From contig SVSU01000003.1 in the NCBI GenBank assembly GCA_015064135.1, positions 1 to 42,621 on the forward strand: a stretch of DNA of 42,621 nt, in the 5' to 3' direction. Positions within the stretch are counted from its first letter, which is position 1; every line of letters starts with the position of its first letter. The stretch is from Oscillospiraceae bacterium (GTDB taxonomy: Bacteria > Bacillota > Clostridia > Oscillospirales > CAG-272). Positions 11,518 through 41,637 of this stretch are shown here, piece after piece. A program made the position numbers and the translations under genes. The notes beneath the pieces are model-generated. The model was given only the letters and a program-made list of their open reading frames with translations, did not search any database and was not told the origin of the DNA.

Positions 11518-11595
11518 GATATTCAGCCTCTTTTTTCACAGGAAAGCAGAACTCTTATGGAAAAGCTGTTTTCTGCCGAAGGGGAGGAAAGGAGT

Positions 11596-13824: not shown

Positions 13825-13896
13825 ACTTTGGATGAGGTACAGAACCGTATTTCGGTGAGATAATAAAAAATACATAAAAAAGGAAAACAGAAAACA

Positions 13897-25884: not shown

Positions 25885-26094
25885 ATGAAAGAAAACTACA
25901 TGGTATGCAACTGCAAAAAGGTCAGCTTTTACGATATTGCAGATGCCCTGCACGAAAACAAATCATTTGACGATGTGCTGATGGCATTCGAGGACGTGAA
26001 GAAAGTTACTCATTGCTCAACGGGATGCGGCGGATGCCACGACAAGGTTCTGAAGGTGATCTCCGACATTCTGATGGGTTACGAGAATGTGTAA
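25885..26094 (+). CDS. BFD-like [2Fe-2S] protein
   Basis: VCNCKKV...CSTGCGGC; directly after ferritin. Confidence 0.88.
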   Translation: MKENYMVCNCKKVSFYDIADALHENKSFDDVLMAFEDVKKVTHCSTGCGGCHDKVLKVISDILMGYENV

Positions 26095-26111
26095 CGGCTT
26101 GATTTGAATAA

Positions 26112-26180
26112 TAAAAAGAGGGTCTGTACCGCAGAGCTCCTTCCAAAAATGGGAGGCTCGGGGAACAGACCCGTTTTTTC
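26112..26180. terminator. Bidirectional terminator with nested hairpin
   Basis: AAAAAGAGAGGGTCTGT...ACAGACCCGTTTTTT enclosing an inner GAGCTCCTTCC/GGGAGGCTC stem. Confidence 0.7.
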
Positions 26181-26266
26181 GATGTTTTTTTCGCCAAAAA
26201 GATTGACAGCGCGCCTATGGATTGATTATACTATTATCATAATCGGACATAGGGCACGGAAACGCC

Positions 26267-27208
26267 TCAGCGAATAAGTTTTCTCATTTCCTCAGCCAAA
26301 AGCTCCATCTGACGGATGCAGAGCACATTATACTCCGTAAGGTCAGCGGCAGGACGCTTTCTTGTGAAAATGTCGGAGAGGGGCAGACCGATGATCTCCT
26401 TCAGATGGTACTTTGCGGTTACAGGATAAGCGAGGGCTTCGGTGAATGCTGCCATGGAAAGGGCAGACTGAAGCACATCGGCCTTCTCGGGCTCCTTTTC
26501 AAAGTTTTCGCACAGCCATACATACAGATCGGGATGGAAGTTGCACATAACACCGCAGTAACCCGAAGCGCCGCTTCTGACAGTTTCAAGAAGGGTCTGG
26601 GCGTTGGCGTTGTACAGCTTCATGGGGGTGCCCTCAATGAGCTTTACGCGGTGTGCCATCAGTGCGGCATCGCAGCAGGTGTCCTTCATGTAATAGAAAC
26701 GGCCGCTGTCTGCACAGAATGTCAGCATTTTGTCAGACATGAGACGCTTGTAGGGGGAAGGACATTCGTAAACGCCCAGGGGCATATCGGGCAGAGCGTC
26801 CATGAGACGGGTGGTGTCCGCAATCCATGCTTCGTCGCCTGTGTTTGCGATATCCATGCGGTTGGAGATGAGTATAAGAGTGTCGATACCCACAGCATTG
26901 ATGGACTGAAGCTCGTATACCTGATCCTCAAAGGAGTCGGAAATGTGTCCGGAGGCAACAACGGTCAGCCTCGGCTTGTCGGGATGGAGGGAAGAGAGCT
27001 CCGCTGCCCTGTCAACCACGGTTTTTGTGAGCTTTACACGCTCTGCTACGGTGAGATTGAAAATTTCGCTTGACTGGCAGGTGGCAAAGATACCGCCGCA
27101 GCCCTTTTCGTGATACCAGTCAACCATTGCCCGTGCAGCGCCGTAGTCAACGCTTCCGTCACGGTTGAAGGGCGTTACCATTGTAGGAAATGCCTGTGCT
27201 TTTGACAT
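26267..27208 (-). CDS. DHDPS/N-acetylneuraminate-lyase-family aldolase (not true DapA)
   Basis: MVTPF, CQSSE in place of GTTGE, YECPSPYKR and Schiff-base KDTCCD. Confidence 0.85.
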   Translation of the reverse strand: MSKAQAFPTMVTPFNRDGSVDYGAARAMVDWYHEKGCGGIFATCQSSEIFNLTVAERVKLTKTVVDRAAELSSLHPDKPRLTVVASGHISDSFEDQVYELQSINAVGIDTLILISNRMDIANTGDEAWIADTTRLMDALPDMPLGVYECPSPYKRLMSDKMLTFCADSGRFYYMKDTCCDAALMAHRVKLIEGTPMKLYNANAQTLLETVRSGASGYCGVMCNFHPDLYVWLCENFEKEPEKADVLQSALSMAAFTEALAYPVTAKYHLKEIIGLPLSDIFTRKRPAADLTEYNVLCIRQMELLAEEMRKLIR

Positions 27209-27250
27209 GATTGTATATACCTTTCTTTATGTTTTAATATTACCATCAGT

Positions 27251-27318
27251 ATTATACCACCGATTTGTTTCGAGGGCAATATCAAACGGAGACAAAAACA
27301 TATCAATTTCAGACAAAA
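27251..27318 (-). promoter_or_regulatory. Promoter of the aldolase gene with tandem AraC-type half-sites
   Basis: Minus strand TTGCCC-17 bp-TATAAT (27279-27251), abutted by a 21-bp-period direct repeat TATCAAnnnnAGACAAAA at 27280 and 27301. Confidence 0.7.
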
Positions 27319-27336
27319 TCGCGAAGGAGAAATCCC

Positions 27337-28230
27337 ATGAAGCAGACGAAAGCTCACCCTCGCCGCAGGAGTGCAATGAATAAGCTGAAGATTCCTGCCA
27401 TCACCTCACCAATGGAAGCCGAGATTCTGTGGCTTCAGATGCAGTATCGGCATCTTGATGACCACAGGGTTTCCAAAAAGCTGCATCGCCACACCTTTTA
27501 CGAGATCCACTTCCAGCGAAAGGACCATACCGTTTATCAAATAGCAGAGTGGGGTGAGGTGACACTTTCCGAAGGTGAATATTTGCTTTTTCCGCCGGGG
27601 ACAGAGCACGTTATGAGCAGTGGAGGGGCGGAATATGAACGTCTGTCCCTGACCTTTGTGCTGAATGGTGGAGAGGATAATCCTGTTTACGCCGCTTTTC
27701 CCAAAAACGTGACCCACGGAAAGATCACGGAGGGGATGGAGGCCGCCATCCGCATTGCCCTGTCTGCTGAGGGTTGTCCGAGGGCAGTAATCCCGTATCT
27801 GATCAGGGAATCCGTGTGCGCTCTGCTCCTGATGCTTTCCTCCTCTCCGAAGGAGAAAAGCGGCTTTGCGGAGAGAGGGGTCAGTCGGGCGGAAGCCTCT
27901 GATGATGGAGAGGACGTTCGCCTGATCCATGCGCGGAAATTTATCGAGGACAACAGCACCCGACCTCTTTCGGTAACGGAAGCGGCTCAGGTGGTGCATC
28001 TGTCAGACAGGCAGCTTAACAGATTATTCAATGAAGCGGAAGGGGTATCGGTTGGCGAATACATCCGAAAGGCGCGCTGCGAGAGGATGAAGGAGCTTTT
28101 GACGGGGACAGAGCTGACCATCCGTGAGATCGCGGAGGCTTTGGGCTTCTCCAACGAGTACAACTGCATCCGCTTTTTTGAATCGGCGGAGGGTGTCAGC
28201 CCGGGACAGTATCGCAGACTGGCTCAGTAG
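27337..28230 (+). CDS. AraC-family transcriptional regulator
   Basis: Cupin LHRHTFYEIH...PPGTEH and a C-terminal double HTH (LSDRQLNRLF; IAEALGF...FF...GVSPGQYR). Alternative start at 27376. Confidence 0.92.
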   Translation: MKQTKAHPRRRSAMNKLKIPAITSPMEAEILWLQMQYRHLDDHRVSKKLHRHTFYEIHFQRKDHTVYQIAEWGEVTLSEGEYLLFPPGTEHVMSSGGAEYERLSLTFVLNGGEDNPVYAAFPKNVTHGKITEGMEAAIRIALSAEGCPRAVIPYLIRESVCALLLMLSSSPKEKSGFAERGVSRAEASDDGEDVRLIHARKFIEDNSTRPLSVTEAAQVVHLSDRQLNRLFNEAEGVSVGEYIRKARCERMKELLTGTELTIREIAEALGFSNEYNCIRFFESAEGVSPGQYRRLAQ

Positions 28231-28534
28231 AAGGAGAGAGTGGCAAAAGAGAATCATGCACACAACAATAAATAAAAAATACCGGGACAGATTTCACGAA
28301 AACGTGAGTCTGTCCCGGCTGTTGTTTGGTTTATGCAAGGGGATATACATCAGGCAGCATACTGTACTGGAACAGCAGGAGCGCGTCGCTGATGTCAGTT
28401 GTGCCGTCCTTTGTGAAGTCGGTGGAGCCGATGTAGGGAATGGGGTATACATCGGGAAGCATACTGAACTGGAAGAGCGCCAGCGCGTCTGAGATATCAA
28501 CGGTTTCGTCATGGTTGATGTCACCGAGGATTTC
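28164..28534. repeat. 371-bp direct repeat, copy 1 (araC 3' end + terminator + dockerin coding sequence)
   Basis: Aligns without gaps to 36997-37367 at an offset of 8,833 bp; 7 substitutions counted by eye. Confidence 0.97.
28282..28318. terminator. Bidirectional terminator between araC and the LRR gene
   Basis: CCGGGACAGATTTCACG-aaaa-CGTGAGTCTGTCCCGG flanked by A- and T-rich tracts. Confidence 0.8.
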
Positions 28535-31500
28535 TGTAGGTTCTGTGCCGGGCTTGGTTTCGGGCTCGGTTTCGGGCTCGGTTTCGGGCTCAGTCTCGGG
28601 TTCAGTTTCGGGCTCAGTCTCGGGCTCGGTTTCGGGCTCGGTTTCGGGCTCAGTCTCAGGCTCGGTTTCGGGAACGTTCTCGGCGACATCCCAATAGAGA
28701 GAGCAGTATGCACTGTTGTTTGTTAAATAATAGTCCTCAGGTTCCGGAACAAATTCTACAAAAACACGCGTTATAGACTTGTCTGTGAGTTCGAGCGTGT
28801 TGTGCAGTTTTTCGCCCGGTTCCAAAGTAATATCCTTAGTGAAAATAACCTCTCCATCTGTGTCATCACGCTTGATTATAAGTGTTCCGCTTCCGCTGAC
28901 AGATCCATTGTTGCGCGTGAGTGCATCTAAGAGTGGATCTTTCGAAACATAATACACTGATGCTTTTACAGAAATATCCGCAAAACGAACTGTGACAGAC
29001 TCAGTATCGGTTAAACCGTTTTCGTCGGTTACGGTAACAGATATGTCATTTTCTCCGTCGACAAACGTACAATTGAATGTGACAACAGTATTTTCTCCCG
29101 GAAGTATTTCGTTGTCAAACTCCTGTACGGATCCATCTTTTGCATACAGCGTAAACCCGGATGCTGCAGAGGTTCCGTTGTTCCTGATTTGTACCTTCAA
29201 CGAAACGAAATTATCCCCAAAGAGATCTGACGAGTTGTAATCGAGATAATCAATACCAAGGGAGGCAGCAGGTGCTTTATACGAGGAATACAGCGAGCTT
29301 TGTGTCTGCATATCGCTTTCAGATAAGGAGACATCTGTCTGACGGAACACGGTGAGCAAGTTTCCATCGAGAACAACCGTATCGAAACTGTCTATATATC
29401 CTTCGGATTTGATGAAACTGATGGGGTTTGACAAAACATTTCCGTTAAGAATATAACAGTAGATGTCACAGTTTCCGCTTTCTTCTTTTTCTTCTTCGCT
29501 GTAAACTCTGAGGAAGAAATACGTTGTCTCACCGTCGGTAACTACCTCGAAGTCATTGGAACTTCCAAAAGGCAGTGACTTGATAACGGTTTTTGTTTTC
29601 TTGGTGGATTTCATGCAAACGAGCTTGTTGTTTTCAATCCAGTAAGCATGATTGCCGCTGAATGTAATACTATTTGAAGCTCTGCCGGAGGCGATACACA
29701 TGGTTTGACCGTTTGTGTATGCCACGATGGAATTGTCCCCGACCGTGCTGAAATCGTTGTCCGTGTCATGTGCGACTACAACAACAGCGTTTTCTCCGTC
29801 AAATGAGCCGACAGCCAGAGCTGAGACTGCATCGGCATCTTCGCAAAGAACAGTGGGTTCGGTCCACGCACCGTCAATGAAATTGCTTGTGTAAAGGGTG
29901 TTGTTGCCGGTCATACCGAAGAGGTGGTTGTCATTGTTGCTTACCCATGCGGCAACAGGCACACCGTTCACGATGGTCATATCCGGCAGCAAATCAAATG
30001 TATTGTCTGCTGTAAGGAGAACGGGTTTATCAAATGTGCCGGATTCCCAATCGTATTTTGCAGCAGCAACTTCCATGGCACCTGCAATATCATAAGTATC
30101 ATCTGCATCGGATAAAGCTCTGTTTGCTTGGAGATATACAATCCAAATATCATTGCCGTCGGAGCAGAGCTTGAACATGGAGTCCGCGAGAGCGTTGCTG
30201 TCAACAGGCATGGGCTCACTCCAGGAGTTACCGTCCCAAAGAGAGTAAACCAGCTTTTGTGCATTGTAAATGTCATCGCTGCCGCTGTCGTTGAGGAACG
30301 CCATCATGGTAACGCCGTCCGCTGTTACGATCTGGGGATCCGCACCGTCATATACACCGCTCTGGAGTACACCGTCAGCAACGGATTGCCACTGTGAAGA
30401 GAGAGCAGTGGGGGCGGTTTCTGCGAAGGCATAGCGTTTGACATCGTATAATTCCGGACCCACCAGTGCGGACAGAGCGTTTGCGGAGGAATCTTGACCG
30501 TAGATGTACTTATTCCCCGCGAACAAAGCAACGTCAACCTTTAGCCCTTCAAACAGTCCGGATTTGGCATATAACCCAAACTCACCCATCAATTGGATAT
30601 ATTGCAAGCCTATTTCCGGTATAAGGTTGATACGGAATGCGAGGGAAGGTTTTCCGTAAACACCTGCTGAAAGAACTTTATTTCCAACACCGGCACGACA
30701 TAATGCGGCACCGGTTACAAGCATATCAAGGTTATACTCAGTAGGAAGTCGGAGTTTTCCTGATACTTTATCAATTTCGCATACGTCAATCAGGAGCTCT
30801 CCTTTGATAGTGAAATCGACTTCAAGACGAACCGAAATCGCACCGACAGGAACGGTCAATCCCGTACCGTTTGTATATTCGAGTGTAACAATTAACATAA
30901 TTTCAGGATTGTCGAAGATTCCTTTGTCATCAAATTTCAGAGTCAATCTACCGCCTACCTTAAACTTGAAATCGTGACTCGAAACAGGGTTTCCGGCCTT
31001 TTCCGAAACCTTATTCAGTGCTTTTTGAATATCGGAAAGTTTAGGTTTATTGTTTAATCTGACATTGAGTCCATAGCGAATATCCGAATTACTCAGCCTT
31101 CCCTCGATATCCCAACGCGGGGCCGCTATACTGAATTTCATACCGCCCAAAAAATCAACATCATCCGGAAGAACAAAGTCCCATGCATCCTTAAAGAAGT
31201 TATCAAACTCCACCAACCCCTGCGACACAACAACGATATTCAGTGATTTTGATGTAACCACATTATCCGCAGTATGCATCTCTACCGAAACGGGCTCGCC
31301 GGCTTTGAAGTTGCTGTTGTGTACCTTGAAGTTTGCAAAGCAGTATGTATCGGCAGGGCCGCCTTTGGCTTCACCGAGTACGGTGCTTCCCTGTTTCAGT
31401 ACAATTTTTGTAATATCGAAAAGGGAGGACTTACCCGACACGGAGATTTCCGCTGTCAAATCCGCTTTGTTGTTGATTTGTGAGACCTGGTTTGAAAGTT

Positions 31501-34500
31501 TCTGAGCATTGCAGGTCAGGGGGGTGAGTATTTTTTCATCTTTCGGGCTCATAATGATGACGAAGGTGGAGGAAGGGGAGACATTGAATTCTTCGTAATC
31601 ATCATAATCCGTTTTTTTGGCTGAGATGCTGATGGTTTCGCCGTCAGCGGGCATTTTAAATGTCAGCTCTCCGCTGCTGCCCGTGACGCCGGACTGTTTG
31701 CCGAATTTGACCGTAACGCCGCTGAGAGGAATGAGTTTGGTTTCGGTGAGAGGGTCATCCCATTCGCATACGGAAACGGTGCACACCTGCTCGGGCTCAG
31801 TCTCGGGCGCGGAGGTCTCTGGTGCGGTGGTCTCGGGCGCGGTGGTCTCGGGCTTGTCTTTGGGGACATATTCTCCTAAGGATATAAATTTTGATTTGCA
31901 ATACGCATTATTAAAACACATCTGCTCATTAACATAATAAGCTTCTCTGTGGATCCTAGTATGATGCCAAAACTCATCTTCTGCCTTAGAGTCGGAGAAT
32001 CCATACACTGTAACGGAGTTGATGGGGACTTCTCCTTCACAGCCAAACTCCCAAAGGTCAAGATATACCGTTGGATTGAGAATCGTTACACTTTTCACAT
32101 TGGTACAGCCGGCGAAGGCCTCATCGTCAAGCGAAGTAACATTCTCGGGAATCCTCACGCTTGTGAGCCCTTTGCAGCCGTAAAATGCACTTCCGCCAAT
32201 CGAAGTTACGCTGTCGGGAATGTCAATGGTTGTGAGCGCTGTGCAGTGGCAGAATGCACATTCACCAATAGAGGTAACGCTGTCACCGAGGCTCAAACTC
32301 GTGAGCCCAATGCAGCCGTAGAATGCCTCTTTACCAATCGAAGTAACACCGTCACCAATTATGACGCTTGAAAGCCTTTTGCAGGCCTCGAATGCACTTT
32401 CTCCAATCGAAGTAACACCGTCACCAATTATGACGCTTGAAAGCTCTGCGCAGCCACGGAATTTATAAGAACCAATATAAGTAACGCTGTCTCCTATTGT
32501 TACGCTTGTCAGTTTTTCATAGTCCCTAAAAATAAAGCCGGTAAGGGAAGGTACACCATTGCCGATAATTATGTTTTCCAACCCTGTGCAGCCGGAGAAT
32601 GCATAATAACCAATAGAAGTAACGCTGTCGGGGATATCAATTCTTGTGAGCCCTGTGCAGCCATAGAATGAACTGTCACCAATAGAAGTAACGCTGTCGG
32701 GGATATCAATTCTTGTGAGCCCTGTGCAGCCATAGAATGAACTGTCACCAATCGAAGTAACACTGTCTCCGAAGTCCACGTTTGTCAAAACATTGCAGTT
32801 GAAGAATGAACTGTCACCAATCGAAGTAACGCTGTTGCCGATGTTTATGTTTGCCAAACCTATACAGTCTTGAAAAGCACATTCTCCAATAGAAGTAACG
32901 TTGTCCGGAATTTCAAAGGTTGTGAGCCCTGTGCAGCCGGAAAATGCATAATCACCAATCGAAGTAACGCTGTTGCCGATGACCACGCTCGTGAGCCCTT
33001 TGCAATTGGAAAACGCGCTTTTGCCAATACAAGAGACACCGCTGCCGATAGTCACACTTTTCAAAGAGGTGTAGGAAGAGAATGCCTGTTCACCTATATA
33101 AGTAACACTGTCTCCGATGGTTATGTTTTCCACACTAATGTGTGAGTATGGACTGAATATATTTTTAAAATCCTCAACAAAAATCAAACTGTCGGTGGTC
33201 ACGCTTTTTAGTCCTATGCAATATTCGAATGCATCATGAAAAACCGAGGTAACACTGTTGCCGATGGTTATGTCTGTTAAATTTGTGCAGCGCATGAACG
33301 ATTCTGAGCCAATTGAAGTAACTCCGTCGCCTATGGTCACGTTTTTCAGTCCTGTGCAGCCGTAGAATGCCCAGTTACCAATGGAAGTAACGCTGTCGGG
33401 AATGTCAATGCTTGTGAGGCCAGTGCAGCCGTAAAATGCAGCTGTTCCAATGTCAGTAACACTTTCGGGGATATCAATGCTTGTCAGACTTGTACATCTG
33501 TTGAATGCTCTGGCGCCAATGGAAAACAAGCAGTTACCAAGGATAAATTCACTGTCGCCAAAGGACACACTTTTGAGGCCATAGCAGCCGGAGAATGCAT
33601 ATTCATCAATGTAAGTGACACTGTCGGGAATCTCAATGCTTGTTAAGTTTGAGCAGCCCTCGAATGCCTCTTTTCCTATCGAAGCAACGCTGTCTCCGAA
33701 GTCCACGTTTGTTAAACCACTGCAGCCTGAGAAGGCACTGCCGCCAATGTAAGAAACGCTGTCGCCGAATGTCACACTTTTGAGGCCGGTGCATCCAGAG
33801 AATGCACCCCCGTCAATCGAAGTAACACTGTCGGGAAATTCAATGCTTTTGAGGCTGGTGCATCCGGAGAATGCACCGCCGTCAATCGAAGTAACGCTGT
33901 CGCCAATAATTACATTCTCCAATCCTGTGCAACAATAGAATGATTTTCCACTGATCGACGTAATACTATTGCCAATCGTTATGCTTTTAAGATTTTCGTT
34001 TTCGTTAAAATAGAAGCCATTTAGGTCGGGGACACCATTGCCGATAATTACATTTTCCAAATTCGTGCAAATAAGAAATGCATAATCACCAATAGAGGTA
34101 ACGCCATTGCCGATAGTTACATCTGTTAATTCTTTGCAGCCACTGAATGCACTTTTGCCAATAGAGGTAACGCTGTCACCGATAACAACGCTTTTTAGTT
34201 TTTCATATGTTTTAAAATCAAAGCTGTTAAGGTCAGTCACACCGTTACCAATGGTTATTTTTTCTACATTCGAGCAACCTTTGAATGCATTTTTGCCAAT
34301 AGAGGTAACGCTGTCGGGAATGTCAATGCTTGTGAGGCCAGTGCAGCCGGAGAATGCAGCTGTTTCAATGTCAGTAACGCTGTCGGGAATGTCAATGCTT
34401 GTGAGGCCGGTGCAGCCGGAGAATGCCCCGGAACCAATAGAGGTAACGCTGTCGGGAATGTCAATGCTTGTGAGGCCAGTGCAGCCGGAGAATGCAGCTG

Positions 34501-36850
34501 TTTCAATGTCAGTAACGCTGTCGGGAATGTCAATGCTTGTGAGACCTGTGCAGCCGTAGAATGCCCGTATGCTGATAGAGGTAACGCTGTCGGGAATTTC
34601 AATGCTTGTGAGGCCGGTGCAGCCGTAAAATGTTTCGTCGCCAATCGAAGTAACACTTTCGGGAATGTAAATGCTTGTGAGGCCGGTGCAGCCTTCAAAT
34701 GCAGCTGTTCCAATGTCAGTAACGCTGTCGGGAATGTCAATGCTTGTGAGTCCTGTGCAGCCGGAGAATGCCCGTATGCCGATAGAGGTAACACTGTCGG
34801 GAATGTCAATGCTTGTGAGTCCTGTGCAGCCGTAAAAAGCCGAATTGCCAATGGAGGTAACGCCATTGCCGATGATAATGCTTTTCAGGTTTTCATAGAA
34901 ATAAAAGCTACTAAGACTACTTACACCATTGCCGATGGTTATGTTTTCCAACCCTGTACAGCCGTAAAATGCAGCTGTTCCAATGTAAGTAACGCTGTCG
35001 GGGATATCAATGCTTGTGAGCCCTGTGCAGCCGGAGAATGCAGCTGGTCCAATGTCAGTAACGCTGTCGGGAATGTCAATGCTTGTGAGGCCGGTGCAGC
35101 CGGAGAATGCCTCTCTTCCTATCGAAGTAACGCTGTTGGGAATCACAATACTTGTGAGTCTTGTGCAGCCTTTGAATGCCCAGATGCCAATCTCAGTAAC
35201 GCTGTCGGGAATGTCAATACTTGTGAGGCCGGTGCAGCCGGAGAATGCATAATCACCAATCGAAGTAAAGCTGTCGGGGATATCAATGCTTGTGAGCCCT
35301 GTGCAGCCGGAGAATGCAGCTGTTCCAATGTCAGTAACGCTGTCGGGAATGTCAATGCTTGTGAGCCCTGTGCAGCCTTTGAATGCCCGTATGCCGATAG
35401 AGGTAACACTGTCGGGAATGTCAATGCTTGTGAGTCCTGTGCAGCCGTCGAATGCATCTTCACCAATAGAGGTAACACTGTCGGGAATGTCAATGCTTGT
35501 GAGTCCTGTGCAGCCGTAGAATGCAGAATTACCAATCTCAGTAACGCTATCACCGATGGTTACGTTTGTGAGCGCTTTGCAGCCGTAGAATGCATGATAA
35601 CCAATATAAGTAACGCTGTCTCCTATTGTTACGCTTGTCAGTTTTTCATAGTCCGTAAAACTAAAGCCGTTAAGGTCAGGTACACCATTGCCGATAATTA
35701 TGTTTTCCAACCCGGTGCAGCCGTAAAATGTTTCGTCGCCAATCGAAGTAACGCTGTCGGGAATGTCAATGCTTGTGAGGCCAGTGCAGCCGTAAAATGC
35801 ATAATAACCAATGTAAGTAACGCTGTCGGGAATGTCAATGCTTGTGAGGCCAGTGCAGCCGTAAAATGCATAATAACCAATGTAAGTAACGCTGTCGGGA
35901 ATCTCAATGGTTGTGAGCGCTGTGCAGCCGTAGAATGCCCTGGAACCAATAGAGGTAACACTGTCGGGAATGTCAATGCTTGTGAGACCGGTGCAGTCTT
36001 CGAATGCACTGCCGCCAATCGAAGTAACGCTGTCTCCTATTGTTACGCTTGTGAGCCCTGTGCAGCCGTAAAATGCACTTTCGCCAATCGAAGTTACGCT
36101 GTCGGGAATGTCAATGGTTGTGAGCGCTGTGCAGCGGAGGAATGCAGCTGTTTCAATGTCAGTAACGCTGTCGGGAATGTCAATGGTTGTGAGCGCTGTG
36201 CAACCGTAGAATGTCCTGGAACCAATAGAGGTAACGCTGTTGGGAATAACAATACTTGTGAGGCCGGTGCAGCCGTAGAATGCATAATTGCCAATGGTCG
36301 TAACGCTGTCGGGAATGCCAATGCTTGTGAGGCCAGTGCAGCCGTAGAATGCATCATAACCAATAGAGGTAACGCTGTCGGGAATGTCAATGCTTGTGAG
36401 GCCGATGCAACCGTAGAATGCATAATCACCAATCGAAGTAACGCTGTCGGGAATGTCAATGGTTGTGAGCGCTGTGCAACCGTAGAATGTCCTGGAACCA
36501 ATAGAGGTAACGCTGTTGGGAATAACAATACTTGTGAGGCCGGTGCAGCCGTAGAATGCATAATAACCAATAGAGGTAACGCTGTCGCCGATGGTTACTT
36601 TATTTATGGATGTTCTGTGTGGATACCATGGCGCACCGGTATTGATTTTCCATGCACCCATTTTCCCCACGCCGTCAATCACCAACTCACCGTCGTCATA
36701 CAGTACCCACGTCAGGTTACCGCTGTTCGCACCGCATTCGCCTTCCGCCACGGCCTCTCTTGCACCGGCACCAACCGCGCAGAGCACCATACAAATCGCC
36801 GCAACACCAATGACCAATACCGCGCTTGCTAATTTTCTCATATATTTCAT
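28331..36850 (-). CDS. Giant secreted BspA/TpLRR (LRR_5) surface protein with C-terminal dockerin, 2,839 aa
   Basis: Signal peptide; GECG..NLTWVLYDDGELVIDG...APW cap; roughly 65 23-aa repeats LTSIDIPDSVTSIGxxAFxGCTG; PETTA linker; beta-rich region with propeller-like and CARDB-like segments; (PETE)n linker; twin Ca-loop dockerin GDINHDETVDISDA / DFTKDGTTDISDA. Confidence 0.93.
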   Translation of the reverse strand: MKYMRKLASAVLVIGVAAICMVLCAVGAGAREAVAEGECGANSGNLTWVLYDDGELVIDGVGKMGAWKINTGAPWYPHRTSINKVTIGDSVTSIGYYAFYGCTGLTSIVIPNSVTSIGSRTFYGCTALTTIDIPDSVTSIGDYAFYGCIGLTSIDIPDSVTSIGYDAFYGCTGLTSIGIPDSVTTIGNYAFYGCTGLTSIVIPNSVTSIGSRTFYGCTALTTIDIPDSVTDIETAAFLRCTALTTIDIPDSVTSIGESAFYGCTGLTSVTIGDSVTSIGGSAFEDCTGLTSIDIPDSVTSIGSRAFYGCTALTTIEIPDSVTYIGYYAFYGCTGLTSIDIPDSVTYIGYYAFYGCTGLTSIDIPDSVTSIGDETFYGCTGLENIIIGNGVPDLNGFSFTDYEKLTSVTIGDSVTYIGYHAFYGCKALTNVTIGDSVTEIGNSAFYGCTGLTSIDIPDSVTSIGEDAFDGCTGLTSIDIPDSVTSIGIRAFKGCTGLTSIDIPDSVTDIGTAAFSGCTGLTSIDIPDSFTSIGDYAFSGCTGLTSIDIPDSVTEIGIWAFKGCTRLTSIVIPNSVTSIGREAFSGCTGLTSIDIPDSVTDIGPAAFSGCTGLTSIDIPDSVTYIGTAAFYGCTGLENITIGNGVSSLSSFYFYENLKSIIIGNGVTSIGNSAFYGCTGLTSIDIPDSVTSIGIRAFSGCTGLTSIDIPDSVTDIGTAAFEGCTGLTSIYIPESVTSIGDETFYGCTGLTSIEIPDSVTSISIRAFYGCTGLTSIDIPDSVTDIETAAFSGCTGLTSIDIPDSVTSIGSGAFSGCTGLTSIDIPDSVTDIETAAFSGCTGLTSIDIPDSVTSIGKNAFKGCSNVEKITIGNGVTDLNSFDFKTYEKLKSVVIGDSVTSIGKSAFSGCKELTDVTIGNGVTSIGDYAFLICTNLENVIIGNGVPDLNGFYFNENENLKSITIGNSITSISGKSFYCCTGLENVIIGDSVTSIDGGAFSGCTSLKSIEFPDSVTSIDGGAFSGCTGLKSVTFGDSVSYIGGSAFSGCSGLTNVDFGDSVASIGKEAFEGCSNLTSIEIPDSVTYIDEYAFSGCYGLKSVSFGDSEFILGNCLFSIGARAFNRCTSLTSIDIPESVTDIGTAAFYGCTGLTSIDIPDSVTSIGNWAFYGCTGLKNVTIGDGVTSIGSESFMRCTNLTDITIGNSVTSVFHDAFEYCIGLKSVTTDSLIFVEDFKNIFSPYSHISVENITIGDSVTYIGEQAFSSYTSLKSVTIGSGVSCIGKSAFSNCKGLTSVVIGNSVTSIGDYAFSGCTGLTTFEIPDNVTSIGECAFQDCIGLANINIGNSVTSIGDSSFFNCNVLTNVDFGDSVTSIGDSSFYGCTGLTRIDIPDSVTSIGDSSFYGCTGLTRIDIPDSVTSIGYYAFSGCTGLENIIIGNGVPSLTGFIFRDYEKLTSVTIGDSVTYIGSYKFRGCAELSSVIIGDGVTSIGESAFEACKRLSSVIIGDGVTSIGKEAFYGCIGLTSLSLGDSVTSIGECAFCHCTALTTIDIPDSVTSIGGSAFYGCKGLTSVRIPENVTSLDDEAFAGCTNVKSVTILNPTVYLDLWEFGCEGEVPINSVTVYGFSDSKAEDEFWHHTRIHREAYYVNEQMCFNNAYCKSKFISLGEYVPKDKPETTAPETTAPETSAPETEPEQVCTVSVCEWDDPLTETKLIPLSGVTVKFGKQSGVTGSSGELTFKMPADGETISISAKKTDYDDYEEFNVSPSSTFVIIMSPKDEKILTPLTCNAQKLSNQVSQINNKADLTAEISVSGKSSLFDITKIVLKQGSTVLGEAKGGPADTYCFANFKVHNSNFKAGEPVSVEMHTADNVVTSKSLNIVVVSQGLVEFDNFFKDAWDFVLPDDVDFLGGMKFSIAAPRWDIEGRLSNSDIRYGLNVRLNNKPKLSDIQKALNKVSEKAGNPVSSHDFKFKVGGRLTLKFDDKGIFDNPEIMLIVTLEYTNGTGLTVPVGAISVRLEVDFTIKGELLIDVCEIDKVSGKLRLPTEYNLDMLVTGAALCRAGVGNKVLSAGVYGKPSLAFRINLIPEIGLQYIQLMGEFGLYAKSGLFEGLKVDVALFAGNKYIYGQDSSANALSALVGPELYDVKRYAFAETAPTALSSQWQSVADGVLQSGVYDGADPQIVTADGVTMMAFLNDSGSDDIYNAQKLVYSLWDGNSWSEPMPVDSNALADSMFKLCSDGNDIWIVYLQANRALSDADDTYDIAGAMEVAAAKYDWESGTFDKPVLLTADNTFDLLPDMTIVNGVPVAAWVSNNDNHLFGMTGNNTLYTSNFIDGAWTEPTVLCEDADAVSALAVGSFDGENAVVVVAHDTDNDFSTVGDNSIVAYTNGQTMCIASGRASNSITFSGNHAYWIENNKLVCMKSTKKTKTVIKSLPFGSSNDFEVVTDGETTYFFLRVYSEEEKEESGNCDIYCYILNGNVLSNPISFIKSEGYIDSFDTVVLDGNLLTVFRQTDVSLSESDMQTQSSLYSSYKAPAASLGIDYLDYNSSDLFGDNFVSLKVQIRNNGTSAASGFTLYAKDGSVQEFDNEILPGENTVVTFNCTFVDGENDISVTVTDENGLTDTESVTVRFADISVKASVYYVSKDPLLDALTRNNGSVSGSGTLIIKRDDTDGEVIFTKDITLEPGEKLHNTLELTDKSITRVFVEFVPEPEDYYLTNNSAYCSLYWDVAENVPETEPETEPETEPETEPETEPETEPETEPETEPETEPETKPGTEPTEILGDINHDETVDISDALALFQFSMLPDVYPIPYIGSTDFTKDGTTDISDALLLFQYSMLPDVYPLA
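28555..28672. repeat. 12-bp coding tandem repeat (PETE)x~10 linker
   Basis: Units of GGTTTCGGGCTC with a few synonymous variants. Confidence 0.95.
31796..31855. repeat. 15-bp coding tandem repeat (PETTA/PETSA) linker
   Basis: KPETTAPETTAPETSAPETEPE separates the LRR array from the C-terminal half. Confidence 0.85.
32090..36605. repeat. 69-bp-period LRR-coding tandem array
   Basis: Recurrent GTAACGCTGTCGGGAATGTCAATGCTTGTGAG..TGTGCAGCCG every 69 bp. Confidence 0.97.
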
Positions 36851-36885
36851 GCTGTCTCTCCTTTGTCTGTTTTCCTTACTTCTTC

Positions 36886-36914
36886 ATTATATCATATATT
36901 TATCCGGATTTCAA
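36886..36914 (-). promoter_or_regulatory. Sigma-A promoter of the LRR gene
   Basis: TTGAAA-17 bp-TATAAT with an extended TG; AAAGGAGA RBS downstream. Confidence 0.8.
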
Positions 36915-36997
36915 CCAAAATCCGGTGTATTTCTCCCTAAAAAATTCACACAAAGCTCCTTGACTTGTTTTGTGGAATGACTTGTATAAAAACTATC

Positions 36998-37063
36998 TGC
37001 ATCCGCTTTTTTGAATCGGCGGAGGGAGTCAGCCCCGGGCAGTATCGGAGACTGGCTCAGTAG
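36998..37063 (+). pseudogene. Orphan 3' fragment of araC
   Basis: Encodes CIRFFESAEGVSPGQYRRLAQ*, identical to the AraC C-terminus, with no upstream gene body. Confidence 0.9.
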
Positions 37064-37114
37064 AAGGAGAGAGTGGCAAAAGAGAATCATGCACACAACA
37101 ATAAATAAAAAATA

Positions 37115-37151
37115 CCGGGACAGATTTCACGAAAATGTGAGTCTGTCCCGG
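37115..37151 (-). terminator. Terminator of the scaffoldin gene (duplicated hairpin)
   Basis: Same hairpin as 28282-28318 with one C>T change next to the loop. Confidence 0.75.
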
Positions 37152-37163
37152 CTGTTGTTTGGT

Positions 37164-38504
37164 TTATGCAAGGGGATATACATCAGGCAGCATACTGTAC
37201 TGGAACAGCAGGAGCGCGTCGCTGATGTCTGTTGTGCCGTCCTTTGTGAAGTCGGTGGAGCCGATGTAGGGAATGGGGTATACATCGGGAAGCATACTGA
37301 ACTGGAAGAGCGCCAGCGCGTCTGAAATATCAACGGTTTCGTCATGGTTGATGTCACCGAGGATTTCGTTTCTTACAGTTACTTCAGCAGGTACAGCGCC
37401 GGAGTTGAGAACCTTGGAATTGTTCTTTACAAGGCTCTGCATGGTTACCTCTGTGGTGCAGTCCTCAATTCCTGCCGCAATTTCAAAGCTGAGCGTGAAA
37501 AGGTCGCCTGTGAAAACTTCAGCGGTCTTGAGCCCCAATGTTACAACGCCCTTTTCCGTGTCAAATGCGTTCAGGAAGAACTTGTCCGCAGCGGCTTCGG
37601 TGTCGGAGAAACCAACGAATGTGAGAATGCTCGGGTCATAGCTGAGCTCGAACAGTGCAATGGAGTTGATGGGGTCTGTGCTCTCCGCAGAGATCTTTAC
37701 CTCAATCACCTCGCCGGGCTTGCCGATGGCTTCGTGGAAGGTGAAGATGGTACCGGATGCCGGGATAACTTCGCCGTCTGCCAGCTTAACGCCACAGTCG
37801 AGACAGTGGGTATTGCCTGTGTAGCCGTCCTCGAAGCAGGTGTCGGCCTTTGCATCACGGATCTCGGTTCTGCCTGTGTGGTTGTCGGGGTCGATGGGTG
37901 TGGCAAGATTCTTCAGTTCAACCTCACCCTCCTCATCTGCAAAATAACATTCACATTTTGTGCAATACCATGCTTCAGTCTTTCCTTCATCCACACAGGT
38001 TGCGGCAACGGGAGCAGAATAGGTCATTGCGTGAACATGGTTTACGGTAATGGAGCCTGCAATAACCTCGGATGCGAGAACTTTACTGCCGTTCTTTGCG
38101 AGGGGAGTTGCTGTGATGGGGTAGGTTCCTTCGGGAGCGTCCTCGGCAATGGTGAACTCGAGGCTGCATATGTAGCTTTCAAAAGCGGAGCCGGACATTG
38201 CACCGAGAGTGATAACTTCTTTTGTATCATCGAAGGAATTGAGGAAAAACTTTGAACTGATGCTCGGATCAATGTCGGTGAAACCGTTGAATGTGAAAAG
38301 TTCTGTGTCATATGTGAAATTTGAAAGGGCAAAACTGTTTGCGGGGACGGAGGCATCAACGGAAAGCTCAACCTTGACGGTACATCCGGGATCCTCATTG
38401 GGGTTTGAAAGGGTGAAAGCAACATCGCTGCTTGCCGCACCTGCAAACAGTGCTATGCCGACAGCGCACACCCCTGCAAGTACTGTGGAAATGATTTTTT
38501 TCAT
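37164..38504 (-). CDS. Mini-scaffoldin: signal peptide-cohesin-Cys/His linker-cohesin-dockerin
   Basis: Two ~125-aa beta modules with cohesin hallmarks (PG.TVKVELSV / GKPGEVIEVKIS; FTYDTELFTF / LSYDPSILTF; LEFTIAEDAPEGTYPIT; GSITV) that resemble each other (KFFLN.FD..K.V.TLG, KN.SKVL). C-terminal dockerin. Confidence 0.85.
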   Translation of the reverse strand: MKKIISTVLAGVCAVGIALFAGAASSDVAFTLSNPNEDPGCTVKVELSVDASVPANSFALSNFTYDTELFTFNGFTDIDPSISSKFFLNSFDDTKEVITLGAMSGSAFESYICSLEFTIAEDAPEGTYPITATPLAKNGSKVLASEVIAGSITVNHVHAMTYSAPVAATCVDEGKTEAWYCTKCECYFADEEGEVELKNLATPIDPDNHTGRTEIRDAKADTCFEDGYTGNTHCLDCGVKLADGEVIPASGTIFTFHEAIGKPGEVIEVKISAESTDPINSIALFELSYDPSILTFVGFSDTEAAADKFFLNAFDTEKGVVTLGLKTAEVFTGDLFTLSFEIAAGIEDCTTEVTMQSLVKNNSKVLNSGAVPAEVTVRNEILGDINHDETVDISDALALFQFSMLPDVYPIPYIGSTDFTKDGTTDISDALLLFQYSMLPDVYPLA

Positions 38505-38593
38505 GGAAGTGTCTCCTTTACATAAATATTGTGAATTGTCCTTACTGCTGTTGGAACAAAATTCCGTCGGGAATGGAATATTTATTCAAATCA

Positions 38594-38622
38594 ATTATAT
38601 CATTTGGTGATGATGTTGTCAA
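38594..38622 (-). promoter_or_regulatory. Consensus sigma-A promoter of the scaffoldin gene
   Basis: TTGACA-17 bp-TATAAT with an extended TG. Confidence 0.85.
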
Positions 38623-38723
38623 CACTATGTGTGCAAATACATCATAAAGTGTTTTCCGGAAAGTTTTTCACCCCCTTCCAATTATTTTGCTGTCATGCAC
38701 CGTAGGGGATGACTCTATTCCCA

Positions 38724-38752
38724 TTGACAAATACCCCCATAGGGTATATAAT
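38724..38752 (+). promoter_or_regulatory. csoR-copA promoter with CsoR operator
   Basis: TTGACA-17 bp-TATAAT whose spacer holds ATACCCCCATAGGGTAT, the C/G-tract palindrome typical of CsoR sites. Confidence 0.9.
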
Positions 38753-38783
38753 AAAGTTGTAACATACAACGGAGGGAAGTCAT

Positions 38784-39107
38784 ATGGACAACAACCGTAC
38801 CAAAAACTGTGCACACAGCAAATGTTCCGGCAAAACAAAGGAACGCTCCCCTGAGGAGATGAAAAAATTGCTGAATCGGCTGAATCGAATCGAGGGACAG
38901 ATCAGAGGGATTCGCGGAATGGTGGAGAAAAGCGCTTACTGTACGGATATTCTCACCCAAGTGGCGGCGGCAGGTGCTGCCCTTAACGGATTCAGCAAGG
39001 AACTGCTGGCGGAACACATCAAAACCTGTGTGGCAGAGGATATCCGCCGTGGGAAGGACGAAACCGTGGATGAGCTTGTCTGCACTTTGCAGAAACTGAT
39101 GAAGTAA
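38784..39107 (+). CDS. csoR: Copper-sensing repressor CsoR
   Basis: [21 protein letters not shown] and EHIKTCV (C-H-C ligand set). Confidence 0.93.
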
Positions 39108-39123
39108 AGGAATGGTCGTGGAT

Positions 39124-41637
39124 ATGAAACAATATACAGTAACGGGAATGAGCTGTGCCGCCTGCAGTGCCCGTGTGGAAAAGGCGGTGAGCAAGGTGCC
39201 CGGTGTCACCTCATGCTCGGTGAGCCTGCTTACAAACTCCATGGGGGTGGAAGGCACCGCTTCGGAGGAGGCGGTTATCAAGGCAGTTGTTGATGCAGGA
39301 TACGGTGCGGCGAAAAAGGGAGGGGGGACACGGTCAGCCCCGGCCGCGGAGGATGCCCTTGCTGACAGAGAAACCCCTGCGCTGAGGAGACGCCTCATTG
39401 CATCTCTCGGCTTTCTTGCCGTGCTTATGTATATTTCCATGGGACACGTTATGTGGGGCTGGCCTCTGCCATCATTTTTGGCGGACAATCCCATTGCCAT
39501 TGGTCTGGCTCAGCTTATCCTGTCTGCCGCTGTCATGGTAATCAACCAAAAATTCTTCACAAGCGGCTTCAAAAGTCTATGGAACCGCGCCCCGAATATG
39601 GACACTCTTGTGGCGCTCGGCTCTGCCGCTTCCTTTGTATACAGCACCTACGCTCTCTTTGCCATGACAGCCCATACGGGGGTCGGAGATGCCATGCATC
39701 ATTACTTGCATGAGTTTTATTTTGAATCGGCTGCCATGATTCTCGCGCTCATTACGGTAGGCAAAATGCTGGAGGCGCGCTCCAAGGGGAAAACCACCGA
39801 TGCGCTGAAGGGCTTGATGAAGTTGGCGCCGAAAACCGCTGTCATCCTTGTTGACGGGGAGGAAACAGAGATTCCTGCGGAACAGGTGAAGAGGGGAGAT
39901 GTTTTTGTGGTTCGCCCCGGCTCCGATATTCCCGTGGACGGTGTGGTTGTCGAAGGGGAAAGCGCGGTAAACGAATCTGCACTGACGGGGGAAAGCATAC
40001 CTGTTGACAAACACGAGGGAGACCGGGTGTGGGCGGCAACGCTGAATCAATCGGGATATCTGAAATGCGAGGCAACCGGGGTAGGCGAGGACACGACCCT
40101 TGCCAAGATCATAAAAACAGTCAGCGATGCGGCATCCACCAAAGCGCCTATCGCAAAAGCGGCAGATCGTGTGTCGGGAGTATTCGTTCCTGCGGTGATC
40201 TCGTTCGCTGTCCTTACCACTGTCATATGGCTGCTTGTGGGACAGACGATCGGTTTTGCCATAGCGAGAGGGATCTCGGTTCTTGTTATAAGCTGTCCCT
40301 GTGCCCTGGGACTTGCCACACCGGTTGCCATTATGGTAGGAAACGGCGTGGGAGCGAAAAACGGCATACTGTTTAAAACAGCCTCTGCTCTTGAGGAAAC
40401 AGGGAAGATTCAGATCGTAGCTCTTGACAAAACGGGCACGATCACAAAGGGGGAGCCGACGGTCACCGATATCCGCACAGCAGAGGGGGTCAGCGAAACG
40501 GAACTGCTTACCATGGCGGCTTCCCTGGAGAGGAAAAGCGAGCATCCCCTTGCAAAAGCCATCATTGAGAAAGCGGAAAACGATAGACTCAGCCTGCGCG
40601 ATGTGTCGGAATTCACAGCTCTTCCCGGCAGCGGCTTGACAGCATTCCTTGACGGTGCGGAGCTGTGCGGCGGAAATCTCAGGTATATGGAGACGAAAGC
40701 CGTGGTGGAGGATTGGGCGAGGGATGAGGCTGAAAAACTGGCGGAGGACGGAAAGACCCCCTTGTTCTTTGCAAAAAACGGCAGGCTTCTCGGAATCATG
40801 GCGGCGGCAGACGTAATAAAAGAGGACAGTCCCCGTGCGGTAGAGGAATTGCGGAATATGGGCATCAGGGTGGTCATGCTGACGGGAGATAACGAAAAAA
40901 CCGCCCGTTCCATCGGCAGACAGGCAGGAGTGGATGAGGTGATCGCAGGTGTCCTGCCGGACGGGAAGGAAAAGGTTATCCGTACACTGAAGGCCTCGGG
41001 CAAAACCGCCATGGTGGGCGACGGGATCAACGATGCACCTGCCTTGACTGCGGCGGATATTGGCATCGCCATAGGTGCGGGAACGGATATTGCCATTGAC
41101 GCGGCGGATGTGGTGCTGATGAAAAGCAGACTGTCCGATGTACCTGCCGCAATACGTCTGAGTCGGGCTGCTCTCAGGAATATTCACGAGAACCTTTTCT
41201 GGGCATTTCTTTACAACACGATTGGAATACCCTTGGCGGCAGGGGTGTTTATTCCCGTGCTCGGCTGGCAGCTGAACCCCATGTTCGGGGCTGCTGCCAT
41301 GAGCTTGTCCAGCTTCTGTGTGGTGACAAACGCCCTTCGGCTGAATTTTGTGAATATCCGAAGCTCCTCAAAAGACAAAAAAGCAAAGTCCGCGGCATCG
41401 ATCGGGAAAACCACGGAGCGTGTGCTGCATATTGAGGGAATGATGTGCGGTCACTGCGAGGCATCGGTAAAGGCGGCTCTGGAGAACATCCCCGGTGTGA
41501 CGGCAGCTCGGGCGGATCACAAGTCGGGTACTGCGGTTGTCAGACTGAGGGGCAAGGTGTCCGACAAAGCACTGCGCAAAGCGGTGGAGAAAGAGGGATA
41601 TAAGGTATCGGGAGCAGACAGCGGAGAAAAAGAATAA
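39124..41637 (+). CDS. copA: Cu(I)-translocating P1B-type ATPase with N- and C-terminal HMA domains
   Basis: [47 protein letters not shown] and C-terminal GMMCGHC. Alternative start at 39112. Confidence 0.95.

What the first reader, a model, noticed from the sequence alone, without database searches (positions are those of the whole stretch)
28164..37367. LRR gene is an 8,833-bp cassette bracketed by 371-bp direct repeats that contain the whole dockerin
Seen: 28164-28534 and 36997-37367 align without gaps (7 substitutions). One repeat boundary falls exactly at the first residues of the dockerin (EILGD); the other falls inside the araC tail. One crossover between the copies would cleanly excise a circle holding promoter + LRR gene + dockerin + terminator and leave araC and the scaffoldin intact. 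Unequal crossover would amplify the cassette. No recombinase is encoded. Inference: the dockerin-terminator block acts as a RecA landing pad for gain, loss or swapping of dockerin-tagged cargo genes.
Basis: partly seen in the sequence, partly recalled or inferred. Interest (0 to 1): 0.75.

Follow-up and report, generated by a model that had tools for sequence, protein, structure and literature searches.

The report
Duplicated dockerin-terminator block flanking LRR gene
Two neighbouring surface-protein genes of an uncultured gut bacterium end in the same 371-base block, copied once by ordinary recombination; it is a real but fairly ordinary scar, not a demonstrated gene-swapping device.

Summary
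28164-28534 and 36997-37367 are ungapped 371-nt direct repeats with 7 substitutions, 8,833 nt apart. Each copy holds the last 22 codons of araC, a strong two-way terminator hairpin and a complete 67-residue dockerin.

All 6 coding differences are synonymous and the seventh lies in the terminator loop. Both dockerin peptides are therefore identical.

The block is not a general landing pad. The MAG has only these two copies. Its 14 other matches cover only the dockerin part, at 66-80% identity. Among 16 dockerins this pair is 99% identical in DNA; the next-best pair is 76.6%.

Pfam finds no recombinase among the 30 ORFs scanned. I found no empty site, alternative cargo or circle junction.

In a second strain (run X7), the araC-linked copy carries copy-B letters. 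Its DHDPS/araC flank is 3.3% diverged, while 687 nt of the LRR gene are identical. Most A/B differences therefore look like a later allelic import, not decay in place.

[quoted passage not shown] Interest is modest.

The parts
28164..28534 (.). Repeat copy A. It holds the araC 3' tail (28164-28230), the intergenic terminator, and the dockerin-coding 3' end of the LRR gene (28331-28534).
   Evidence: both junctions bridged by Logan contigs of X2 and X1
36997..37367 (.). Repeat copy B. It holds a dead araC tail fragment (36998-37063, 21 codons plus stop, no gene body upstream), the terminator, and the dockerin-coding 3' end of the cohesin-dockerin gene (37164-37367).
27265..28230 (+). AraC-family regulator gene (321 aa). 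Its last 22 codons lie in copy A.
   Evidence: Pfam HTH_18 1.2e-20; no orthologue in 52 other species of the genus at E<=1e-40
28282..28318 (.). Terminator hairpin of copy A, stable on both strands, with a U-run after it on the minus strand. Substitution 28303 C/T sits at its loop.
   Evidence: fold: -31.6 (+ strand) and -30.5 (- strand) kcal/mol, z about -6.5, 0 of 200 shuffles as good
37115..37151 (.). Terminator hairpin of copy B. It stands between the cohesin-dockerin gene and the LRR promoter.
   Evidence: fold -28.2 kcal/mol, z -6.2
28331..36850 (-). Gene for a 2839-aa BspA-type LRR_5 protein. It has an (EPET)n linker and a C-terminal dockerin. This is the 'cargo' between the repeats.
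   Evidence: Pfam LRR_5 1680 bits in 15 stretches; Dockerin_1 at residues 2775-2829
28515..28694 (-). 12-nt tandem array coding the Glu-Pro-Thr linker. It abuts the right boundary of copy A.
   Evidence: family D4; translation
36886..36914 (-). Promoter-like site of the LRR gene (TTGAAA-17-TATAAT with TG), inside the 146 nt between the LRR start codon and copy B.
   Evidence: 11 of 12 matches
37164..38504 (-). Gene for a 446-aa cohesin-dockerin protein (adaptor-scaffoldin-like). Its cohesin|dockerin junction (VTVRN|EILGD) is the right boundary of copy B.
   Evidence: Pfam Cohesin 5.4e-13 and Dockerin_1 8e-5; junction colinear with homologues
38594..38622 (-). Promoter-like site of the cohesin-dockerin gene (TTGACA-17-TATAAT with TG).
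   Evidence: 12 of 12 matches

Best explanation
The two 371-nt copies are a passive scar of a single rearrangement that needed no recombinase. That event duplicated one stretch of local DNA: the last 67 nt of araC, the shared two-way terminator, and a whole dockerin-coding 3' end. As a result, two adjacent minus-strand genes each own an identical dockerin and terminator. These are the giant BspA-type LRR protein and the cohesin-dockerin adaptor.

The araC fragment in copy B shows that the block was copied as DNA from the site next to araC. Two routes fit about equally well. In the first, the 8,462-nt LRR body with its promoter was inserted between araC and a resident cohesin-dockerin gene, duplicating 371 nt of the target. 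[quoted passage not shown] In the second, a 371-nt patch was copied from behind the LRR gene onto the 3' end of the cohesin gene, replacing an older dockerin and terminator.

Shown: the repeat, its contents, its uniqueness in the genome, the silent nature of all differences, and the absence of recombinase genes. Inferred: the single event and its route. Also inferred is that six of the seven differences came later. In that reading, homologous recombination with a strain about 3% diverged replaced the DHDPS-araC flank together with most of copy A.

Today copy A finishes araC, terminates both convergent transcripts and tags the LRR protein. Copy B tags the adaptor and shields the LRR promoter from read-through. 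Like any direct repeat of this size, the pair can be deleted or amplified through RecA, but nothing shows that this happens or is used.
For: The repeat is real and has sharp edges.

Copy B carries 21 araC codons plus a stop with no gene body upstream.

Only two full copies exist in the MAG. The other 14 matches cover only repeat positions 158-368, at 66-80% identity.

Among 16 dockerins (120 pairs) this pair is 99.0% identical in DNA. The next-best pair is 76.6% and the median is 66.3%. Other adjacent pairs are 70-71% alike.

Pfam finds no integrase, transposase or other recombinase among the 30 main ORFs scanned on the 42.6-kb contig.

Six of 6 coding differences are synonymous, with P=1.4e-4 under random substitution. 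The differences crowd into the first 52 nt (4/52 against 3/319, Fisher p=0.009).

In run X7, a contig joins the araC body (28120-28163) to a tail carrying all four copy-B letters. A second X7 contig lies best on copy B. X7's DHDPS/araC flank differs at 31 of 939 nt, but its LRR pieces (28794-29092 and 29274-29661) differ at 0 of 687 nt, P about 1e-10.

A repeat length of 371 nt falls within the 46-423 nt range listed for insertions with long target duplication in PMC2853133 (passages read).

Each gene has its own promoter-like site, and the hairpin is strong on both strands.
Against: No genome or contig with a single-copy 'empty' site was found, so the defining comparison for an insertion with target duplication is missing.

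The direction of the event (insertion or patch) is unresolved. The cohesin|dockerin junction is colinear with the 9 homologues in which that junction aligned, which suits both a native dockerin and an in-register replacement.

The X7 evidence rests on a few contigs at depth 2.4-4. The contig that links the araC body to B-type letters passes a 30-nt stretch shared by both copies, so it could be a chimera of the k=31 graph. Only 8 of X7's 78 laid records were shown.

Only copy A's two junctions are bridged by contigs of other assemblies.

Silent-only differences would also fit selection keeping two working dockerins, with occasional gene conversion between them.
Confidence: 0.65

Rival explanations
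1. The araC-tail/terminator/dockerin block is a recurrently used RecA landing pad. Dockerin-tagged cargo genes are gained, lost, stacked or swapped between strains by crossovers in this block, and the LRR cassette pops out as a circle or amplifies.
For: The geometry allows clean excision with both flanking proteins unchanged. The boundary between the X7-diverged block and the X7-identical block lies between 28493 and 28794, an interval that contains the right end of copy A (28534). That is where a crossover would be forced if the donor strain had no LRR gene behind its dockerin. Furuta et al. proposed a life cycle of insertion with a long repeat, amplification and release for restriction-modification genes (PMC2853133, discussion passage).
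Against: The genome has only two copies. The terminator and araC part is found nowhere else, and other dockerins are 66-80% identical, too low for efficient RecA exchange. No alternative allele was seen in 52 other species of the genus, in the JGI metagenome scan, or in two protein-database searches. X7's contigs on the cohesin gene show no listed differences, so the shared block runs past both repeats and is not bounded by them.
Confidence: 0.12
2. This is concerted evolution. The two dockerin ends are older than they look and are kept alike by repeated gene conversion, under selection for both proteins to bind the same cohesin.
For: The dockerin peptides are identical, with only synonymous differences. 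The differences are scarcer in the core than at the left edge. Neighbouring genes sharing a dockerin group are known in R. flavefaciens FD-1 (PMC2930009, passage).
Against: Homogenisation would have no reason to carry along a useless araC fragment with a sharp edge. The left-edge differences match a functional araC allele in X7 instead of looking like decay. Other adjacent dockerin pairs in this MAG show no such homogenisation, at 70-71% identity.
Confidence: 0.1
3. This is an assembly artefact. The MAG contig wrongly strings together two strains or two loci that share a dockerin end.
For: The window is a short-read MAG contig from an assembly of 72% completeness and 152 contigs. The two copies carry letters of two different strain lineages.
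Against: The 36996|36997 junction joins the LRR promoter region to a truncated araC tail with no shared sequence on the outer side. A de Bruijn assembler cannot invent such a join. The longest exact run in the repeat is 95 nt, while the MAG's contig-end overlaps are 157-160 nt, so each copy was resolvable by its own letters. B-type letters also occur in an unrelated 2024 run.
Confidence: 0.04

Closest known systems
Insertion with long target duplication (Nobusato et al. 2000, seen only as a reference entry; Furuta, Abe & Kobayashi 2010, PMC2853133, passages read)
   Same: A gene-sized insert under 20 kb lies between direct repeats far longer than transposase target duplications. The paper's tables list 46-423 nt, and this repeat is 371 nt. 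There are no mobility genes, the repeat is unique in the genome, and it overlaps the 3' end of a flanking gene so that gene stays whole. The authors also proposed amplification and release through the repeats.
   Different: The cargo is a cellulosome-type LRR surface protein, not a restriction-modification system. The duplicated target supplies the cargo with a working C-terminal domain and terminator, joined in frame. The defining empty-site comparison is missing here, and the reverse route (a patch copied onto the neighbour) is not excluded.
Campbell-type single-crossover integration and pop-out (general knowledge, recalled; also named in the earlier scan note e1-2596592)
   Same: A non-replicating circle that shares one homology segment with the chromosome integrates and leaves that segment as direct repeats around the insert. 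The reverse crossover excises it.
   Different: The circle would already have had to carry the araC tail, terminator and dockerin, so it must have come from the same locus of another cell. The X7-identical block runs beyond copy B into the cohesin gene, which a simple circle integration into a diverged recipient does not predict.
Neighbouring genes sharing one dockerin group in Ruminococcus flavefaciens FD-1 (PMC2930009, passages; PMC5301203, passages)
   Same: LRR-dockerin and cohesin-dockerin (adaptor) proteins are standard members of ruminococcal cellulosomes. The paper counts 28 LRR modules among dockerin proteins. Genes of one dockerin group often lie side by side.
   Different: Those papers describe likeness at group level in proteins. 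Here the DNA is 98% identical, and the likeness runs out of the gene through the terminator into a fragment of the next gene, which exposes the copying event itself.
Domain movement or gene conversion between non-orthologous genes (PMC3467074, passages)
   Same: A discrete protein domain is copied between different genes of one genome, with a junction at a short conserved motif (here the EILGD start of the dockerin).
   Different: Here the tract also carries non-coding DNA and a piece of a third gene, so at least one junction is illegitimate, not motif-guided.

Membership tests
Insertion with long target duplication | Direct repeats longer than 30 bp flank an insert shorter than 20 kb | tested here: met
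   371-nt repeats flank 8,462 nt between them; criteria as quoted from PMC2853133
Insertion with long target duplication | No integrase, transposase or other mobile-element gene in or beside the insert | tested here: met
   Pfam on 30 main ORFs of the contig found none. The insert holds one real gene.
Insertion with long target duplication | The repeat is local target DNA, not a dispersed repeat of the genome | tested here: met
   Two full copies only. The other 14 hits cover only the dockerin part at 66-80% identity; self-BLAST.
[quoted passage not shown]
   No araC orthologue in 52 other species of the genus or in 60 relatives (best 30% identity). The JGI metagenome scan gave one relative at 35%. 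No near-identical protein variants were found. The Logan contigs are too short to span 371 nt plus both flanks.
Campbell-type integration of a circle | Each repeat copy is a hybrid of donor and recipient alleles, and the recipient flanks on both sides share one lineage | tested here: inconclusive
   Copy A carries letters of one lineage and copy B those of the X7 lineage. But X7 is identical to the window in the cohesin gene while diverged in the araC flank, which does not fit a simple form of the model. The data are low-depth contigs.
Integron or other site-specific cassette system | An integrase gene with short structured attachment sites at cassette ends | tested here: not met
   No integrase on the contig. 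The repeats are 371 nt of ordinary coding and terminator DNA, and no inverted repeats were found in 26000-39500.
Cellulosome-type dockerin proteins (type of the two genes) | A C-terminal dockerin with two Ca-binding repeats, and a partner cohesin encoded in the genome | tested here: met
   Dockerin_1 matched in both proteins (8e-5, above the curated cut-off, in the adaptor; 5.3e-4, just below it, in the LRR protein) and Cohesin in the adjacent gene. There are 16 dockerins of this type in the MAG. Binding itself was not tested.

The most novel reading that the evidence does not exclude
The site behind araC is a strain-variable docking bay. Different strains of this species carry different dockerin-tagged genes there, or none. 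Crossovers inside the araC-tail/terminator/dockerin block stack, swap or drop these genes, and each newcomer receives a ready-made dockerin and terminator in frame. The two lineages of letters in copies A and B, and the X7 mosaic boundary that falls in an interval containing the end of copy A, would be traces of such an exchange.
Probability: 0.12. Interest if true: 0.6.

Novelty: new member of a known kind. Interest (0 to 1): 0.3.

Why it matters
The finding gives a DNA-level snapshot of how a cellulosome-type bacterium can equip a gene with a dockerin. A ready block of dockerin plus terminator was copied along with a tell-tale piece of the next gene, so two neighbouring surface proteins now carry exactly the same docking tag.

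That is a useful illustration of module shuffling in these systems. It is also one more example, with a different cargo, of recombinase-free insertion or duplication with long repeats, so far described mainly for restriction-modification genes.

It does not reveal a new mechanism. Its practical consequence is only that the giant LRR gene sits between repeats that make it deletable or amplifiable at the low rates expected for any such repeat.

Tried and rejected
Empty site in relatives:
- araC as a protein query gave only AraC-family paralogues, at most 30% identical, in 60 relatives.
- It gave nothing at E<=1e-40 in 52 other species of the genus.
- The cohesin-dockerin protein gave only domain-level matches.

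Synteny through neighbouring genes:
- In G024, the closest dockerin-rich relative, the DHDPS homologue lies beside other cohesin-dockerin genes with no araC.
- G002's DHDPS homologue and four loci of distant araC homologues have no dockerin or cohesin in the stretches held.
- None of these places is comparable with the window's locus.

Other collection searches:
- The JGI metagenome scan with araC matched 136 stretches and yielded 1 relative, at 35% identity.
- The genome-contig scan with CopA yielded 763 relatives at 61-74% identity across many families. The gene is too conserved and mobile to anchor synteny.
- Protein-database searches with the cohesin-dockerin protein and with the last 300 residues of the LRR protein found no near-identical variants.
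- In the exact look-up of clusters, only the cohesin-dockerin protein is on record, as a singleton on 2 contigs. The araC and LRR sequences as I delimited them are not on record.

Reads:
- All four runs are Logan contigs at low depth.
- No contig covers 36878-37096 in any run, so the left junction of copy B was not seen outside the MAG.
- None of the 15 listed joints links 28.1-28.5 kb with 37.0-37.4 kb, but 94 further joints were not shown.
- Depth over the LRR repeats is swamped by other organisms, so copy number could not be judged.

Remaining checks:
- Composition: the LRR gene has 44-49% GC against 50-53% in the flanks. The difference is too small to argue for foreign origin.
- Microhomology: none was seen at any of the three junctions when reading.
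- Earlier scan notes by place and by sequence gave nothing.
- Complex prediction and structure prediction were not used, because no binding claim is made.
Full report
OBSERVATION

The window is the whole of contig C50 of a metagenome-assembled genome: 2.05 Mb, 152 contigs, 72% complete. The repeat finder lists a two-copy direct family at 28164 and 36997 with spacing 8833. An alignment with 100-nt flanks shows identity that begins and ends abruptly, with unrelated sequence outside.

A script confirms 371 nt without gaps and seven substitutions, at repeat positions 31, 40, 43, 52, 140, 234 and 330. The longest exact run is 95 nt.

ANATOMY

From left to right, each copy holds three parts:
- The last 67 nt of the AraC-family gene (27265-28230, strand +).
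- A 100-nt spacer with a 37-nt hairpin that is stable on both strands: -31.6 and -30.5 kcal/mol, z about -6.5, with 0 of 200 shuffles as good. On the minus strand a U-run follows it.
- 204 nt that encode, on the minus strand, a complete dockerin of 67 residues (EILGD...YPLA) plus the stop codon.

In copy A these parts serve the intact araC gene and the 2839-aa BspA-type LRR_5 protein (28331-36850). In that protein, a Glu-Pro-Thr linker coded by a 12-nt tandem array runs right up to the repeat boundary.

In copy B the dockerin belongs to a 446-aa cohesin-dockerin protein (37164-38504). The araC piece there is a dead fragment with no gene body upstream.

Each gene has its own promoter-like site: 36914-36886 for the LRR gene and 38622-38594 for the cohesin gene. 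Copy B's terminator therefore separates two independent transcription units.

THE SEVEN DIFFERENCES

The four differences in the araC tail are all third-codon synonymous changes. So are the two in the dockerin. The seventh sits at the loop of the terminator hairpin. Both tails translate to the same 21 residues, and both dockerins are identical as peptides.

Only 22.7% of possible single changes in these codons are synonymous. Six silent changes out of six therefore has P=1.4e-4 under random substitution. The differences are also unevenly spread: 4 in the first 52 nt against 3 in the remaining 319 (Fisher p=0.009). A decaying pseudo-fragment would not behave this way.

A SECOND STRAIN

Seven public runs hold part of the stretch, with shares of 0.12-0.38. 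I laid X1, X2, X3 and X7; all are Logan contigs at low depth.

X1 and X2 may include the MAG's own source sample. They carry copy-A letters and bridge both junctions of copy A. X2 has a contig covering 28041-28517 with 0 differences, and X1 has one covering 28192-28578 with 1 difference.

X7, a 2024 gut run, holds another strain:
- Its contigs over DHDPS and araC differ from the window at 31 of 939 nt (3.3%).
- Its two listed contigs in the LRR gene (28794-29092 and 29274-29661) differ at 0 of 687 nt. That has P about 1e-10 if divergence were uniform.
- No differences are listed for its contigs on the cohesin gene.
- One contig (28120-28284) joins 44 nt of araC body to a tail with exactly the four copy-B letters.
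- Another contig (laid at 37097-37344) carries the B letter at 37136, the A letter at 37230 and a private change at 37142. From its placement on copy B, I infer that it also carries the B letter at 37326.

In X7, then, the araC-linked copy looks like the window's copy B. In the window it is copy A, together with the DHDPS-araC flank, that belongs to a diverged lineage.

The simplest reading runs as follows. The duplication arose in an X7-like background and has changed hardly at all since. Six of the seven differences entered later, when homologous recombination with a strain about 3% diverged replaced the left flank and most of copy A. This explains why the differences are silent: they are allelic differences between working genes.

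Three caveats apply. Depth is only 2.4-4. Only 8 of X7's 78 laid records were shown. And the araC-to-B-type contig crosses a 30-nt stretch shared by both copies, so it could be a chimera of the k=31 graph.

IS IT A GENERAL LANDING PAD?

No evidence says so. In the MAG the 371-nt query finds two full copies. The other 14 matches cover only repeat positions 158-368, which is the dockerin part, at 66-80% identity. Nothing else carries the terminator or the araC part.

Among 16 dockerins of this type (120 pairs), the window pair is 99.0% identical in DNA. The next-best pair is 76.6% and the median is 66.3%. The other adjacent pairs, on contigs C148 and C85, are 70-71% alike. Such divergence is too great for efficient RecA exchange (general knowledge).

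Pfam on 30 main ORFs of the contig finds no recombinase. The surroundings are housekeeping genes: dapA, dapB, queA, transketolase and sortase.

COMPARISON WITH RELATIVES

The araC gene has no orthologue in 52 other species of the genus at E<=1e-40. Its best match in 60 relatives is 30% identical. The JGI metagenome scan gave one relative, at 35%.

The cohesin-dockerin protein is a singleton in the 5.8-billion-protein collection. Its next full-length relative is 37% identical. The LRR C-terminus has no close variant.

In G024 the DHDPS homologue lies in a different cohesin-dockerin cluster with no araC. No empty, multiple or alternative allele was seen, but very little of this species has been sampled.

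HOW IT AROSE

The dead araC tail shows that the block was copied as DNA from the site next to araC. Two routes each need one junction at the dockerin start and one illegitimate junction at 36996|36997.

- Route 1: the LRR body with its promoter (28535-36996) entered between araC and a resident cohesin-dockerin gene, and 371 nt of the target were duplicated. This is the pattern called insertion with long target duplication. Furuta et al. list repeats of 46-423 nt, no mobility genes, and repeats that overlap the 3' end of a neighbour. They also proposed later amplification and release through the repeats (PMC2853133, passages).
- Route 2: a 371-nt patch was copied from behind the LRR gene onto the cohesin gene. 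This is a domain movement in the sense of PMC3467074 (passages).

The cohesin|dockerin junction (VTVRN|EILGD) has no linker and is colinear with the 9 homologues in which that junction aligned. This fits a native dockerin under route 1, but it also fits an in-register replacement under route 2. I see no microhomology at the junctions. I rate the two routes about equal.

ARTEFACT?

This is unlikely. The 36996|36997 junction joins unrelated sequences, and a de Bruijn assembler cannot invent such a join. The longest exact run in the repeat (95 nt) is shorter than the MAG's contig-end overlaps of 157-160 nt, so the two copies were resolvable by their own letters. B-type letters also occur in an unrelated run.

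WHAT IS KNOWN

LRR-dockerin and cohesin-dockerin adaptor proteins are ordinary parts of ruminococcal cellulosomes, and neighbouring genes often share a dockerin group (PMC2930009 and PMC5301203, passages). My two full-text searches for dockerin literature, one of which included the term 'gene conversion', listed no paper describing a duplicated dockerin-terminator block. That is a limited search, not proof that nothing is in print.

Earlier notes of this scan describe the same pattern, a gene-end-plus-terminator repeat around a cassette, in other genomes. Some of those cases had empty sites. The notes pointed me to the literature on long target duplication.

VERDICT

It is best filed as a new member of the known class of recombinase-free rearrangements that leave long direct repeats.

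Its pleasing twist is that the repeat supplies a whole protein docking domain and a terminator to both genes. The 'landing pad' idea remains an untested possibility, at about 0.12. Interest 0.3.

Noticed in passing
window 28515-28694: A 12-nt tandem array (10 registers listed) codes the (E/T/P)-rich linker of the LRR protein and abuts the right edge of repeat copy A. It is slippage-prone DNA directly at the junction.
   Followed up: partly
window 32036-36623: The LRR gene is built of 69-nt (23-residue) units. The repeat finder lists 48 registers at 60-84% identity. Logan contigs show many internal joints there, but those may come from other organisms' LRR genes.
   Followed up: no
G000 contig C85:19773-21956 and proteins P0003-P0008: The closest relatives of the window's cohesin-dockerin module (47-60% identity) sit in single proteins that also carry LRR_5 repeats (LRR-cohesin-dockerin). 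LRR and this cohesin-dockerin unit therefore recur together, fused elsewhere and adjacent here.
   Followed up: partly
G000 contigs C35/C9, C35/C70, C36/C64, C28/C63: Contig ends overlap by 157-160 nt at about 99.4% identity, so these MAG contigs could probably be joined. The C35-C70 join would unite two pieces of a cohesin-rich scaffoldin gene.
   Followed up: no
window 27265-28230: The AraC-family gene has no orthologue in 52 other species of the genus. The whole araC-LRR-cohesin stretch between DHDPS and csoR-copA may therefore be accessory DNA of this species.
   Followed up: partly
L144 (G024:C49:1-12909): In a related species the DHDPS homologue is flanked by a cluster of four dockerin genes, three of them with cohesins, plus CotH and a nucleoside hydrolase. 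This is a different scaffoldin neighbourhood beside the same anchor gene.
   Followed up: partly
window 10362-14664: A 794-aa ORF with a pectate-lyase-like (RHGA/epimerase) fold lies between dapA and dapB, which are commonly adjacent.
   Followed up: no
window 36904-36925: An 8-bp-stem hairpin (CCGGATTT...AAATCCGG) overlaps the -35 box of the LRR promoter. It could be a regulator-binding palindrome.
   Followed up: no
window 38715-38752 and 38594-38622: Two perfect 12-of-12 promoter-like sites face away from each other between the cohesin gene and csoR-copA.
   Followed up: no
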